Assembly: GCF_009914755.1 (NCBI RefSeq)
Contig: NC_060926.1
Direction: 5' to 3' (one strand)
DNA length: 64,000 nucleotides
Origin: the human T2T-CHM13v2.0 reference genome, Homo sapiens
In this document: in pieces, positions 15,508-20,109 of the stretch
How the letters are laid out: each line of letters opens with the position of its first letter
How positions within the stretch are numbered: the stretch's first letter is position 1
Made by a program: the position numbers and the translations under genes
The notes under the pieces: generated by a model
Databases searched by the model: none
Seen by the model: only the letters and a program-made list of their open reading frames with translations
Told to the model about the DNA's origin: nothing

Positions 15508-16534
15508 TGTGGGAGGTAGAATAATGTCCCCCAGCAAAAAAAAAAAAAAAAAATGTCCACAGCCTAATCCCTGGAACCTTTAACAATGTTACCTTATATT
15601 GGCAAAAGGGACTTTGCAGATGTGGTTACGTTAATGACCTGAAGATGGGTGGCTGTAATGGATTAGATGGGTGGACCCAATGTCTTTATAAGAGTCTATA
15701 AGAGGGAGACAGGAGATTCAGAGTCAGAGAAGGAGAGGGGATGACAGAAGCAGAGGTCATAGTGATGTGGTTGCTGGCTTGAACATGGAAAGGGACCATG
15801 AGACACAGAAGGCAGGTGCCCTCTAGAAACTGGAAAACGTAAGGAAACAAATTCTTCCCTAGAGCCCCCAGAAGGAGTGTGGCCTTGTCACATGAGATTT
15901 TAACCCAGTAGATCCATTTTGGACTTCTGGCCTCTATAACTGTAAGTAAACCTTTGTTTTGTTTGGTTTTGTTTAACTTTTATTTTAAGTTCAGGGGTAC
16001 ATGTGCAGGTTTGTCATATATGTAAGTTTGTGTCCTGGGGGTTTGTTGTACAGATTATTTCATCACCCAGGTATTAAGCCTAGTACTCATTAGTTATTTT
16101 TCCTGATCCTCTCCCTCCTCCCACCCTTCACCTCCCGATAGGCCCCAATGTGTGTTGTTCCCCTTTATGTGTTCATGTGTTCTTGTCATTTTAGCTCCCA
16201 CTTATACGTGAAGACATGCGGTATTTGGTTTTCTATTCCTGCGTTAGTTTGCTAAGGATGATGCCTCCAGCTCCATGCATGTCCCTGCAAAGGACATGAT
16301 CTCATTCTTTTTTAGGGCAGCATAGTATTCCGTGGTGTATATGTACCACATTTTCTTTATCCAGCCTATCACTGATGGACACTTAGGTTGATTCCATGTC
16401 TTCACTGTTGTGAATAGTGCTGCAATGAACATACATGTGCATGTCTCTTTAGAACAGAATAAATCCGTGTTATTTTAAGCCACTAATACCAAGTTTGTGG
16501 TAATGTGTTATAACAGAGATGAGAAACTAATACA
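15508..16534 (+). mobile_element. MLT1D-like LTR, itself split by an L1
   Basis: tgtgggaggtagaataatg...ggcaaaagggactttgcagatgtg...ctagaaactggaaaa...aaactaataca, with TSD-like acaat/actat. Confidence 0.85.
15955..16455 (-). mobile_element. L1PA 3' fragment (older PA subfamily)
   Basis: T-rich tail, then ttttaagttcaggggtacatgtgcagg. ORF 16244-16432 (MFIAALFTTVKTWNQPKCPS...) is L1 ORF2p C-terminal sequence. Confidence 0.92.
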
Positions 16535-16889
16535 ACTATCATTATCCTCATTTTACAGATGAAGAGACTAAGGCACAAAGTGGTGAAACAGCTTGTCCCA
16601 AATCACACGCCCAGCAAGGCAGATTTAATTCTTGAGCCCAGGTAGTTCCACTCCAGAGCCAGGATTCTTAGCTGCTAAACTACACTGCCAACTACTAATT
16701 GAATCCACAAATTAATAAACGAACCAATGATGAAGAAGATGCTGTCTTAGAGGTTGCAGAGCTTAGAGTCGAGCTAAAAGATGATGTGTAAACAATGATA
16801 GAAATCCCACAAGGCATATAACATGGGAAAAAATACAATAATTGCCTTTGTAAAAGATTTATGATGAAAGAAAATAATCAAGGTTTGCT

Positions 16890-17468
16890 GCCGGTTATGT
16901 GCAATGGTATAGTCGCTGTGGGAAACATTTTGATGGTTCCTAAAAAGGTACCCAGAAGTTCCACTCCTTAGTACCTACCTACCAGAACTGAAGGAAAAGT
17001 ACTGAAACAAGTATTTGTACACAATGTTTATAGAAGCAATATTCACAATAGCCAAAAGGTGGAAACAGCCCAAATGTCCATCAACAGATGAATGAATAAA
17101 TGTATTTTGATATACACAAACAATGGAATATTATTCAGACATAAAAAGGGATGAAGTGCAATACTGATACATGCAACAGGGCAGATGAACCTTGAAAATA
17201 TCAAGCTAAGTGAAAGAAACCAAGCACAAAAAGACACATATTGCATTATTCTTTTCATGTGAAATATCCAGAATTAGTAAATCCATACTGACAGACATAA
17301 ATTTTTTGTTGTTGTTGCCAGAGGCTGGGGGAGAGGGGAGAGTGGGGAGCAACTCTTCAGTAGATATGGGTTTTAATCTGGGCAGTGATAAAAATGTTTT
17401 TGAATAGGATGAAGGTGGTGGTTACACAACAGTGTCACTAAATTTTTCACTTTAAAATGATTAATTTT
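16890..17468 (+). mobile_element. L1MB/L1MC-like 3' fragment (left arm of the inverted duplication lies here)
   Basis: cacaatagccaaaaggtggaaacagcccaaatgtccatcaacagatgaatg...gttgccagaggctggggga. Confidence 0.85.
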
Positions 17469-17992
17469 GGGTATATACCCAAAGGATTATAAATCATTCT
17501 ACTATAAAGACACATGCACACATATGTTTATTGCAGCACTATTCACAATAGCAAAGACTTGGAACCAACCCAAATGCCCATCAATGATAGACTGGATAAA
17601 GAAAATGTGCCACATATACACCATGGAATACTATGCAGCCATAAGAAAGAATGATTTCATGTCCTTTGCAGGGACATGGATGAAGCTGGAAGCCATCATC
17701 CTCAGCAAACTAACATAAGAACAGAAAACCAAACACTGCATGTTCTCACTTATAAGTGGGAGTTGAACAATAAGAAGACATGGATATAGGGAGGGGAACA
17801 TCACACACCAGGGCCTGTAGGGTGGTGGGGGGCAAGGGGAGGGAGAGCATTAGGACAAATACCTAATTCATGTGGGGCTTAAACCTAGATGATGGATTGA
17901 TAGGTGCAGCAAATCACCATGGCACATGTATACCGATGTAACAAACCTGCACGTTCTGCACATGTATACCAGAAGTTAGAGTAAAATTTTAA
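17469..17992 (+). mobile_element. 5'-truncated L1PA (PA7/8-like)
   Basis: ORF 17467-17718 (GIYPKDYKSFYYKDTCTHMFIAALFTIAKTWNQPKCPS) is the ORF2p C-terminus, followed by the L1PA 3'UTR. A 15-bp TSD aaaatgattaatttt lies at 17454-17468 and 17993-18007. Confidence 0.95.
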
Positions 17993-18029
17993 AAAATGAT
18001 TAATTTTATGGTAGGTGAATTTTGCCTAC

Positions 18030-18521
18030 CTCTCCCCCTTCCCCCAGCCTCTGGCAACAACAACGAAAAATCTATGTCTGTCAGTATGGATTTACTAATT
18101 CTGGATATTTCACATAAAAAGAATAATGCAGTATGTGTCTTTTTGTGCTTGGTTTCTTTCACTTAGCTTGATATTTTCAAGGTTCATCTGCCCTATTGCA
18201 TGTATCAGTATTGCACTTCATCCCTTTTTATGTCTGAATAATATTCCATTGTTGGTATATATCAAAATATGTTTATTCATTCATCTGTTGATGGACATTT
18301 GGGCTGTTTCCACCTTTTGGCTATTGTGAATATTGCTTCTATAAACATTGTGTACAAATACTTGTTTCAGTACTTTTCCTTCAGTTCTGGTAGGTAGGTA
18401 CTAAGGAGTGGAACTTCTGGGTAACTTGGTTATTCTATGTTTACCTTTTTAGGAACCATCAAAATGTTTCCCACAGCGACTATACCATTGCGCATAACTG
18501 GCAGCAAACCTTGATTATTTT
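18030..18521 (-). repeat. Inverted copy of 16871-17342
   Basis: The reverse complement aligns end to end with 16871-17342, with roughly a dozen substitutions by eye and one 20-bp indel. ORFs 17043-17258(-) and 18126-18329(+) are near-identical. Confidence 0.97.
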
Positions 18522-18596
18522 GCACGTTCTGCACATGTATCCCAGAACTTAAAGTAAAATTTTAAAAAAATGATTAATTTTATGGTAGGTGAATTT
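18521..18596 (+). repeat. Direct copy of 17948-18022 (L1PA tail, TSD and flank)
   Basis: tgcacgttctgcacatgtat...aaaatgattaattttatggtaggtgaattt occurs at both sites, with 3 substitutions and one extra A. Confidence 0.97.
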
Positions 18597-20109
18597 ATTT
18601 TTATAAAAAATAAAGGAATATTGCAAATAAAAACTATCAAGGAGGGCTTTCTAGAAGATGTAGAACTTAATCAGAGCCTCGGATGATGACTAGGATTAGG
18701 CAGGCTAGGAAGAAGTGAAATAGTAAGCAAAAATACAGAATAATTCTCCATTAATCCCATACAATAGATATTCTTGCATATCAGCAAGTTCCTGCATAGC
18801 CTGCCCCAAGTTCACCTGGCTTTGCCTTCTCCATAACTCTACCCAGCACCCAGTGACTCTATAGGAATTAACAAGAACCGCATTTACAGAAGGTTTTATA
18901 TAAATGGTGTGAAACAGAGTACTTGCTGGAGAGCAACGTACTAATATCAGAAAAACTGGAGCAAGTTCCAAATAACTGAGAAAGCCCCACAGCTCCCCAA
19001 ATGTATCTAGGGCTTGCAGGCAGAAAACACGGGTGCTTGTGCACCAGGTGACCCTGCCCAGTCCCTAGAGGCACCCACAGTTCTGCCTTGCTGCCCACCA
19101 TGACCTGCCTGGCCCTTTTCCTCCCCACCAAGTCACCAAGGATTCCGATCAAAAGCACAGGTCAGAGGTCCCAGCAAAGTGGAAAGGGCCTGGGGAAGGC
19201 TATCCCTGGAGAAGATAAAGCTGTTCCGCCTTTCTCTGGGCCACCACCCACACAGCCTTGGGGGCAAAGGAGATGTCAGTGGCCTCTCTGAAGGTAGAAA
19301 CCCCCGACTATGGTGCTGAGCTAGACTCACCTTTCTTCAGCGAGCAGAAACACGGGAGGGACCCAGGAATAAGCGAGGCCTGCCTTCAGTGCAGCCCCAC
19401 TAGGGAAGGATCTGATGAGCAGCTCTGAGGAACCCTGAGAACAACCCATGTCTCAACCCAGTTCTCTGACTCTGGGCTCCAAGTCACTTCTGTGGGAGTT
19501 TCCCCATGCTGCCATCAGTCACACCAGGGGTCTCTGGCTCCTTCCCACAAGCCTGAGCCATCACTCACAGTGGGATGGAAGGCTGGAGGTGGGGGAAGTC
19601 ATGAGATAGACTCTGTTCTGTTTACAAATTGCTTTTAGCCCTGCGGAGAGAAGTACTTCCAAATGTGAAGGTGTATGTGACTGATAGCTTTGCCTGAAAC
19701 CTACCAAGGTTAGTGACAAAGCCATTGCCCCTGCCTGAGTCCCTCATTCCTTAGGCAGAAACAGGGATCCTGGCAATATAGTCCATCTTTTCTCCAGGAA
19801 AATGCATCACGCATCCAGGCCTCAGATCTCTCCTCTGAACTCCTTCCACCTTCCATATTTGCCTACTCACTGGGGCTGGTATGTCACAGAGAGCCTTGTT
19901 ACCTTTTCCCACGTATGTCTTTCCTCTAGCTCCAGCCTGTCAATTCATCCAGGGCTAGAGCTTGTCTTATTCATCCTGAAGTCTCTCATTGAACTTGTCA
20001 CAGTGCCTGCACACCTACATGCTGGTCGAACAAATGTTGTGCATTTATATTCTTGCTCCTGTGTCAACTGCTGGCTTTTATGACCTCAAGATTTATGTAG
20101 ACATGCTTT

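What the first reader, a model, noticed from the sequence alone, without database searches (positions are those of the whole stretch)
16871..18596. Complex inverted plus direct duplication: a fossil replication template-switch
Seen: 18030-18521 is the reverse complement of 16871-17342 (about a dozen substitutions by eye, mid-to-high 90s percent identity). It is followed immediately by 18521-18596, a direct copy of 17948-18022. The arms are far more alike than two independent copies of an old L1M fragment should be, and appear to share locus-specific decay. Inference: synthesis reached ~18022, jumped ~680 bp back onto the opposite strand, copied ~490 bp, then rejoined at 17948 through a 1-bp (T) microhomology. 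This is the FoSTeS/MMBIR-type pattern. The copied piece includes the L1PA tail and its right TSD (aaaatgattaatttt now occurs three times), so the event postdates that L1PA insertion.
Basis: partly seen in the sequence, partly recalled or inferred. Interest (0 to 1): 0.8.

Follow-up and report, generated by a model that had tools for sequence, protein, structure and literature searches.

The report
Fossil inverted-plus-direct duplication in L1
A 574-base insertion in an old LINE-1 tail is an upside-down copy of nearby DNA followed by a short direct repeat; it looks like the scar of one copying error millions of years ago, a known kind of mutation with no sign of function.

Summary
16871-17342 and the reverse complement of 18030-18521 are identical at 459 of 472 aligned bases (97.2%). 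18521-18596 repeats 17948-18022 directly, with 3 substitutions and one extra A.

These are duplicates, not two separate L1 insertions:
- All 38 other scored genomic copies are only 72-79% identical to the left arm.
- The arms share 57 departures from the majority of 21 other copies.
- The copied piece starts about 14 bases outside the L1M and stops inside it.

The direct repeat carries the L1PA tail, its target-site duplication (now present three times) and L1M tail. The event therefore came after the L1PA insertion. Other L1M copies run straight across 18596|18597, so 18023-18596 is one 574-base insertion.

Best reading: one replication or repair-synthesis template switch, in the four-point order 3-2-4-1. 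Junction 1 has 7 unexplained bases. Junction 2 has 1 base of microhomology, so the MMBIR hallmark of 2-5 bases is not met.

Arm divergence is 2.9% pairwise. By recalled ape divergences this suggests a hominoid-age event.

Primate orthologues could not be examined. This is a new example of a known kind, of modest interest.

The parts
16871..17342 (+). Source arm (four-point 3 to 2). The first ~14 bases (16871-16884) are non-L1 flank; the rest is the 5'-truncated L1M 3' fragment.
   Evidence: Alignment to the right arm. L1M homology to other copies starts at about 16885.
16885..17468 (+). Old L1M-type 3' fragment. It runs through the arm boundary at 17342 and on to the L1PA insertion site.
   Evidence: blastn to other genomic copies reaches 17466-17469. 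17024-17154 is 73% identical to the L1PA ORF2 end (family D1).
16948..16949 (+). Site where the source arm lost 20 bases after the duplication.
   Evidence: In each of the 20 columns, 18-20 of 21 other L1M copies carry a base. The right arm matches their majority in 16 of 20 columns.
17454..17468 (+). Left target-site duplication of the L1PA insertion.
17469..17992 (+). L1PA-type 3' fragment (end of ORF2, 3' UTR and a short A-run).
   Evidence: Translation of 17470-17715 matches LINE-1 ORF2p residues 1178-1258, E 5.6e-43. Genomic relatives are 90-93% identical.
17948..18022 (+). Direct-repeat copy A (four-point 4 to 1): L1PA tail, right target-site duplication (17993-18007) and L1M tail (18008-18022).
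18023..18029 (+). Seven-base filler at junction 1, with no identified template.
   Evidence: No significant template found.
18030..18521 (-). Inverted copy of 16871-17342. It still carries the 20 ancestral bases (18424-18443).
18521..18596 (+). Direct-repeat copy A'. It shares the base T at 18521 with the inverted copy.
   Evidence: The junction 71-mer is unique as a full-length match.
18597..18632 (+). Remaining L1M tail, contiguous with 18582-18596 in the ancestral element.
   Evidence: Six other L1M copies align collinearly across 18596|18597.

Best explanation
18023-18596 is a single 574-base complex insertion made when a growing DNA strand switched templates twice within about 1.1 kb.

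In one reading, synthesis rightwards along the top strand stopped after 18022 and acquired 7 bases of unknown origin. It then resumed on a strand of the same polarity: either the lagging-strand template behind the fork, or its own upstream part folded back. There it copied 17342 back to 16871, about 492 bases at the time. It then returned to the normal template at 17948, 75 bases behind where it had left, so that 17948-18022 was copied a second time.

The mirror-image path (fork moving leftwards, leave at 17948, copy 16871 to 17342, return at 18022) gives the same product.

Shown: the duplicate origin of both pieces, the breakpoints, the order relative to the L1PA insertion, and later independent decay of the copies.

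Inferred: that it was one event, and that it was made by a polymerase switching templates rather than by joining of fragments.

The structure has no evident function. Its consequence is a 472/492-base near-perfect inverted repeat with a 687-base spacer, inside an intron of the lncRNA gene LOC107985792.
For: - Arms: 459/472 identical. The 38 other scored L1M copies are 72-79% identical to the left arm and 72-76% to the right arm.
- Shared locus-specific decay: of 376 informative sites where the arms agree, 57 differ from the majority of 21 other copies.
- Private changes are balanced. Six are derived in the left arm, 5 in the right, and 2 could not be polarised. This is as expected for two copies drifting apart.
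- The copied unit is not an L1 unit. It starts about 14 bases outside the L1M 5' end: the window's hits start at 16885-16903, while 12 of 20 other copies share homology with each other at least 100 bases further 5'. It ends inside the L1M, which continues to 17468.
- A' holds the L1PA tail, the target-site duplication and L1M tail.
- Six other L1M copies run collinearly across 18596|18597, so 18022 was once joined to 18597.
- Divergence of the direct repeat (3/75) and of the arms (13/472) does not differ (Fisher P = 0.47). This is compatible with one event.
- Both junction 71-mers are unique in the genome as full-length matches.
- The four-point template-switch model describes exactly this class. 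When point 4 precedes point 1, the event appears as one large insertion with an inverted and a direct repeat (Walker et al. 2021, PMC7954356, passages read; Loytynoja and Goldman 2017, PMC5453318, passages read).
Against: - No outgroup species or second human assembly could be examined, so the empty ancestral site is reconstructed, not observed.
- Microhomology is 0 bases (plus a 7-base filler) at one junction and 1 base at the other. That is below the 2-5 bases named as the MMBIR hallmark and equally typical of end joining.
- The filler has no significant template. The 6-base snap-back match to 18010-18015 is reached by 252 of 5000 random 8-mers in the 30 bases upstream, and by 2100 of 5000 over all five neighbourhoods tested.
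- The copied fragment is about four times the largest in the great-ape catalogue (492 against a maximum of 128 bases). That catalogue searched only about 100 bases either side.
Confidence: 0.8

Rival explanations
1. Break repair by end joining. A staggered break about 75 bases wide was filled in, giving the direct repeat like a long target-site duplication. A free extra copy of 16871-17342 was then ligated in, in reverse orientation.
For: The junction signatures (a 7-base filler; 1 base of microhomology) are those usual for end joining. A-X-A' has the form of an insertion flanked by a target duplication.
Against: It needs a free duplicate fragment from 1.1 kb away while the source stayed intact. 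It also needs a 75-base stagger. A template switch gives both the local origin and the re-copied 75 bases in a single process. This is inference, not a test.
Confidence: 0.08
2. Two separate events: a 75-base tandem duplication, and later an inverted insertion exactly at its junction (or the reverse order).
For: The direct repeat is nominally more diverged (3/75 = 4.0%) than the arms (13/472 = 2.8%).
Against: The difference is not significant (P = 0.47). It also requires the second event's breakpoints to fall exactly on the first event's junction.
Confidence: 0.06
3. RNA-mediated origin. A read-through transcript of L1M plus L1PA, ending at the L1PA tail, was reinserted by the L1 machinery with twin priming. 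That would give an inverted 5' piece and a direct 3' piece.
For: The site TTTT|AAAAAA at 17990/17991 resembles an L1 endonuclease site (label from recall). The product has an inverted piece followed by a direct piece, flanked by a possible repeat of about 32 bases.
Against: - There is no poly-A tail: the A-run has 7 bases in A' against 6 in A.
- 605 bases of the supposed RNA (17343-17947) are missing between the two pieces.
- There is no microhomology at the internal priming site, only a 7-base filler.
- The RNA would have had to land within about 30 bases of its own end in a 3-Gb genome.
- No plus-strand gene is annotated here (hub table).
Confidence: 0.03
4. Two independent L1M insertions in opposite orientation, made alike by gene conversion; or an assembly artefact.
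For: A 200-base run (16901-17100) has no substitution between the arms (P = 0.01-0.026). This hints that some arm-to-arm conversion may occur.
Against: - The copy includes non-L1 flank and stops inside the element.
- It lies in sequence that postdates the L1PA insertion.
- Gene conversion does not explain the 75-base direct repeat.
- An artefactual duplicate would be identical. Instead there are 13 substitutions and a 20-base deletion in the source arm.
Confidence: 0.02

Closest known systems
Short-range template-switch mutations under the four-point model (Loytynoja and Goldman 2017, PMC5453318; Walker et al. 2021, PMC7954356), in the class where point 4 precedes point 1
   Same: The descendant sequence is L to 1, then the reverse complement of 2 to 3, then 4 to R, all drawn from nearby ancestral sequence. 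It appears as one large insertion carrying a new inverted repeat and a new direct repeat (passages read).
   Different: Scale. The 2-to-3 fragment is about 492 bases and the jump is 680 bases. The great-ape gold-standard set has a median of 12 and a maximum of 128 bases, and searched about 100 bases either side. A 7-base filler is also present.
FoSTeS/MMBIR complex rearrangements (Hastings et al. 2009, PMC2621351)
   Same: A complex product mixing direct and inverted duplication, as expected from serial template switches. A second inverted switch restores a viable chromosome (passages read).
   Different: Those cases run from kilobases to megabases, with 2-5 bases of junction microhomology. 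Here the product is 574 bases, with 0 and 1 bases of microhomology.
Leading-to-lagging strand template switching at forks (ODIRA; Brewer et al. 2024, PMC10766186, abstract and outline read; Martin et al. 2024, PMC10766183, search listing only)
   Same: The first step, a nascent strand crossing to the other arm of the fork and copying it in reverse orientation, is the same idea.
   Different: ODIRA starts at short pre-existing inverted repeats and yields inverted triplications. No such short inverted repeat was found at these switch points, and the product is not a triplication.
Fold-back inverted duplications and templated inverted insertions at breaks (Hermetz et al. 2014, PMC3907307; yeast study PMC11724301; both seen as search listing and start of abstract only)
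   Same: A 3' end folds back on its own strand and copies it, giving an inverted copy separated from its source by a spacer.
   Different: The human cases are large and terminal. The yeast insertions are mostly about 5-34 bases (abstract). This one is interstitial, half a kilobase long, and followed by a return switch.
L1 twin priming (recalled; no paper read)
   Same: An inverted piece followed by a direct piece inside an L1 context.
   Different: There is no poly-A tail. The pieces are not contiguous in the source. The inverted piece is L1M plus flank, not the inserting element.

Membership tests
Template-switch mutation, four-point model | The inserted fragment is the reverse complement of nearby ancestral sequence (2 to 3). 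| tested here: met
   459/472 identical to 16871-17342 in reverse complement. The next best genomic copies are 72-79% identical.
Template-switch mutation, four-point model | Flanking fragments L to 1 and 4 to R are collinear with the ancestor, and a direct repeat of 4 to 1 arises when 4 precedes 1. | tested here: met
   75-base direct repeat. Six other L1M copies run collinearly across 18596|18597.
Template-switch mutation, four-point model | Short range: tens to hundreds of bases; catalogue median 12, maximum 128. | tested here: not met
   About 492 bases were copied, with jumps of 680 and 1077 bases.
Template-switch mutation, four-point model | A single event: a related species shows the unmutated ancestral state. 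| not testable with these tools
FoSTeS/MMBIR | Complex product with discontinuous direct and inverted duplication. | tested here: met
FoSTeS/MMBIR | Microhomology of 2-5 bases at junctions. | tested here: not met
   Junction 1 has 0 bases plus a 7-base filler. Junction 2 has 1 base.
FoSTeS/MMBIR | Endpoints lie near pre-existing repeats or inverted repeats that could stall a fork. | tested here: inconclusive
   An older L1 piece at 16003-16460 (minus strand) pairs at 70-86% with 17496-17952. A causal role is not shown.
L1 retrotransposition with twin priming | Poly-A tail at the 3' end of the direct piece. | tested here: not met
   The A-run has 7 bases in A' against 6 in the source.
L1 retrotransposition with twin priming | Inverted and direct pieces adjoin in the source RNA (feature recalled). 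| tested here: not met
   605 bases (17343-17947) lie between them.
Independent L1M insertion | Each arm is closer to the family than to the other arm. | tested here: not met
   97.2% between the arms against 72-79% to other copies. There are 57 shared departures from the family majority.

The most novel reading that the evidence does not exclude
A half-kilobase germline template switch created a near-perfect inverted repeat of about 470 bases. That is about four times longer than the largest copied fragment in the published great-ape catalogue. The repeat has since behaved as a miniature palindrome: arm-to-arm gene conversion has erased all differences over 200 bases. In transcripts of the lncRNA intron, the repeat would fold into a double-stranded RNA of about 460 base pairs. 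Events of this middle size would then be an overlooked source of new long hairpins, falling between the short-range catalogues and the kilobase-scale rearrangement literature.
Probability: 0.15. Interest if true: 0.45.

Novelty: new member of a known kind. Interest (0 to 1): 0.3.

Why it matters
This is a clean, datable example of a template-switch mutation at a size between two well-studied ranges. Published short-range catalogues report copied fragments of tens of bases. The clinical rearrangement literature deals with kilobases to megabases.

Three practical points follow:
- A repeat annotator would count the inverted piece as a separate old L1M insertion, which it is not.
- The insertion is a ready-made phylogenetic marker for hominoids.
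- The pair of arms, with a known source and copy, can be used to measure gene conversion between close inverted repeats once ape orthologues are aligned.

No function is indicated.

Tried and rejected
- Khan et al. 2006 on L1PA ages was not held, either under its DOI or under its PMC id. Another paper (PMC12432230, passages) gave no ages. L1PA subfamily names and ages are therefore not assigned here.
- Pfam gave no hit above cut-off for the L1PA translation. It gave nothing for the two 23-residue L1M pieces. The L1 label instead rests on the match to solved ORF2p structures and, family D1.
- Template for the 7-base filler. A 9-mer spanning the filler occurs 16 times in the window with up to one mismatch, against 15.2 expected, and none lies within 1.8 kb. 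The 6-base snap-back match is not significant.
- L1M homology upstream of 16885. Nothing better than E = 0.23 was found.
- One literature search for named classes of complex variants returned nothing that I used.
- I did not scan the bacterial or viral contig collections for stray human sequence.
- Independent insertion, twin priming at the time of the L1M insertion, and assembly artefact were considered and rejected, for the reasons given under the rival explanations.

Full report
**1. What is there**

The inverted repeat:
- A gapped alignment pairs 16871-16948 with 18521-18444, and 16949-17342 with 18423-18030.
- 459 of 472 aligned bases are identical (97.2%), with 13 substitutions.
- One 20-base stretch (18424-18443) is found only in the right arm.

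The direct repeat:
- 17948-18022 is repeated at 18521-18596.
- It differs by three substitutions (17968, 17975, 17979) and one extra A in an A-run.

The junctions:
- Seven bases (18023-18029) lie between 18022 and the start of the inverted copy. They match neither source.
- The T at 18521 can be assigned to either piece.

In the whole window only three inverted pairs of 150 nt or more exist. This one is the longest and the most alike.

**2. What the pieces are**

The L1PA piece:
- The stretch 17469-17992 is the 3' end of a primate LINE-1.
- Its translation (17470-17715) matches solved LINE-1 ORF2 protein at residues 1178-1258, E 5.6e-43.
- 39 other scored genomic copies, out of 6105 first-look candidates, are 90-93% identical.
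- It is flanked by the 15-mer AAAATGATTAATTTT at 17454 and 17993. A third copy lies at 18567 (3 matches against 0.02 expected).

The L1M piece:
- The left arm belongs to a much older LINE-1 3' fragment.
- 17024-17154 is 73% identical to the ORF2 end of the L1PA piece (family D1).
- The right arm read in one frame of the L1 sense has 13 stops in 164 codons.
- The genome holds thousands of candidate relatives (6171 and 6465 first-look candidates).
No repeat library was available, and Pfam gave nothing above cut-off.

Extent of the old element:
- Homology to other copies of the old element starts at about 16885. In one search the window's five hits start at 16885-16903, while 12 of 20 other copies share long alignments with one another at least 100 bases further 5'. 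In one search nothing upstream of 16885 scored better than E = 0.23.
- Homology runs on past 17342 to 17466-17469.
- It resumes after the L1PA piece. Six other copies (L027, L023, L020, L015, L026, L009) align collinearly from the 15-mer through 18596|18597 to about 18609-18632.

The ancestral sequence was therefore: L1M up to 17468, then the L1PA insertion with its target-site duplication, then L1M tail 18008-18022 joined directly to 18597 onwards. The stretch 18023-18596 (574 bases) is an insertion into that.

**3. Duplicates, not independent insertions**

- With the left arm as query, the 38 scored genomic copies other than the two arms are 72-79% identical. With the right arm they are 72-76% identical.
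- In an alignment with 21 other copies, the arms agree with each other at 376 sites where the others have a 60% majority. At 57 of these sites both arms depart from that majority. This is decay that happened at this locus before the copy was made.
- The copied unit also ignores the element's borders. It begins about 14 bases outside the L1M 5' end and stops inside the element.
- Both junction 71-mers are unique in the genome as full-length matches. In one search there were 2 matches: the junction itself, and a 32-base partial match to A'. In one search, 1 of 40 scored matches was full length; the other 39 cover only the L1PA-tail half.

**4. What happened afterwards**

- The 20 bases are ancestral. 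In each of the 20 columns, 18-20 of 21 other copies carry a base, and the right arm matches their majority in 16 of 20 columns. The source arm lost them after the copy was made. The copied tract was therefore about 492 bases long.
- Of the 13 substitutions, 11 could be polarised. Six are derived in the left arm (17101, 17102, 17115, 17256, 17333, 17334) and five in the right arm (17118, 17177, 17241, 17300, 17307). Positions 16893 and 16900 are covered by too few copies.
- In the direct repeat all three substitutions are derived in copy A. A' keeps the state of 26, 24 and 29 of 29 L1PA relatives.
- This decay in both copies excludes an assembly artefact, which would be identical to its source.

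**5. Dating**

- Taken together, the two repeats differ at 16 of 547 sites: 2.9% pairwise, 95% interval 1.7-4.8%.
- The direct repeat (3/75) and the arms (13/472) do not differ (P = 0.47). This fits one event.
- The L1PA piece differs from the majority of its 29 nearest relatives at 24 of 518 sites, or 4.6% on one lineage. That is about three times the per-copy change since the duplication, which fits the order of events.
- Against recalled genome-wide divergences (human-gorilla about 1.6%, human-orangutan about 3%, human-macaque about 6%), the event falls in the hominoid stem, very roughly 8-20 million years ago. These benchmarks come from memory. The paper on L1PA ages was not held.

One oddity bears on the date:
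- 16901-17100 has no substitution between the arms. That is a 200-base run, with P = 0.0096 if the 13 substitutions are independent, or P = 0.026 if the two adjacent pairs count once each.
- Long-term decay in that run is normal: 26 of 188 shared derived sites, against 31 of 188 outside it.
- Chance and arm-to-arm gene conversion both remain possible.
- Outside the run the arms differ at 13 of 272 sites (4.8%), which would make the event older.

**6. Mechanism**

The product reads: ancestral sequence up to 18022; then 7 unexplained bases; then the reverse complement of 17342 back to 16871; then ancestral sequence again from 17948. In the four-point notation of Loytynoja and Goldman (PMC5453318, passages) and Walker et al. 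(PMC7954356, passages), the points lie in the order 3 (16871), 2 (17342), 4 (17948), 1 (18022).

Walker et al. describe the class in which 4 precedes 1. It appears as one large insertion with a direct repeat, and it requires re-invasion of already copied DNA.

The template for the inverted tract has the polarity of the nascent strand itself. It was therefore either the lagging-strand template behind the fork or the nascent strand folded back. The sequence cannot tell these apart. Nor can it tell this path from its mirror image, with a fork moving leftwards.

I take a single double template switch as the best explanation (0.8). It accounts in one process for the local origin, the orientation and the re-copied 75 bases.

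Whether to call it FoSTeS, MMBIR or fold-back repair synthesis is open. The MMBIR paper names 2-5 bases of junction microhomology as a hallmark (PMC2621351, abstract and passages). Here the junctions show 0 bases (plus a filler) and 1 base.

The filler has no convincing template:
- A 9-mer spanning it occurs at chance frequency in the window (16 found, 15.2 expected).
- Its 6-base complement to 18010-18015 is matched or beaten by 252 of 5000 random 8-mers in the 30 bases upstream. Over all five neighbourhoods tested, 2100 of 5000 do as well.

**7. Rivals**

- End-joining capture of a free fragment at a 75-base staggered break fits the junction signatures. However, it needs an unexplained free copy of nearby DNA.
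- Two separate events need coincident breakpoints.
- An RNA route (a read-through transcript reinserted with twin priming) is disfavoured. There is no poly-A tail (7 against 6 A). 605 bases are missing between the pieces. There is no priming microhomology. The RNA would also have had to land within about 30 bases of its own end.
- Independent L1M insertions and an assembly artefact are excluded by sections 3 and 4.

**8. Consequences**

The event left a 472/492-base inverted repeat with a 687-base spacer.
- On the minus strand, the sense of LOC107985792 (in whose intron it lies, by the hub's table), 16871-18521 folds as RNA with 463 inter-arm pairs.
- Its longest perfect helix is 151 base pairs, and the minimum free energy is -975.7 kcal/mol.
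- As single-stranded DNA the plus strand forms 465 inter-arm pairs.
- Whether such RNA forms in cells was not tested. No function is indicated.

**9. Comparison and novelty**

The kind is known. What is unusual is the size. About 492 bases were copied after a 680-base jump, against a median of 12 and a maximum of 128 bases in the great-ape gold-standard set. That set searched only about 100 bases either side and so could not have found this event.

It is far smaller than the clinical rearrangements for which FoSTeS and MMBIR were proposed. Related fork-crossing models (ODIRA: PMC10766186, abstract; PMC10766183, listing only) yield triplications, not this product. Work showing that template switches create RNA hairpins and new miRNA genes (PMC10710096 and PMC8794818, listings only) is the nearest functional parallel.

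I file this as a new member of a known kind, with interest 0.3. Whether this particular locus appears in any published list of variants was not searched.

**10. What is left open**

- No primate orthologue, second human assembly or long read could be examined.
- The supplements of the template-switch catalogues were not consulted.

Noticed in passing
window 16003-16460 (minus strand) with 17496-17952: An older LINE-1 3' piece in reverse orientation pairs with the L1PA piece at 70-86% over four collinear blocks (pairs I2, I4, I6, I7). It forms a pre-existing imperfect inverted repeat that brackets the source arm. Whether it helped to stall a fork is speculation.
   Followed up: partly
window 16901-17100 and its partner 18271-18491: A 200-base run has no substitution between the arms, while the other 272 bases carry all 13 (P = 0.0096 to 0.026). 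Shared older decay is normal there (26/188 against 31/188). Arm-to-arm gene conversion is possible.
   Followed up: partly
window 16948/16949: The source arm lost 20 bases after the duplication. The copy keeps them at 18424-18443, and 18-20 of 21 other L1M copies carry a base in each of those columns. The deleted stretch and the sequence after it both begin with TA, a 2-base microhomology (read).
   Followed up: yes
window 17101-17102 and 17333-17334: Two of the differences between the arms are adjacent double substitutions, both derived in the left arm. Each is possibly a single mutational event.
   Followed up: no
window 16535-16598: This stretch matches the flank of an unrelated locus (L027, 76.6% over 64 nt, E 2.7e-7). 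It is therefore another interspersed repeat, MIR-like by recall. It is not part of the duplication.
   Followed up: no
window 16871-18521, minus strand: As RNA in the sense of the surrounding lncRNA intron, the two arms pair over 463 positions. The longest perfect helix is 151 base pairs. This is a candidate double-stranded RNA, but expression was not checked.
   Followed up: partly
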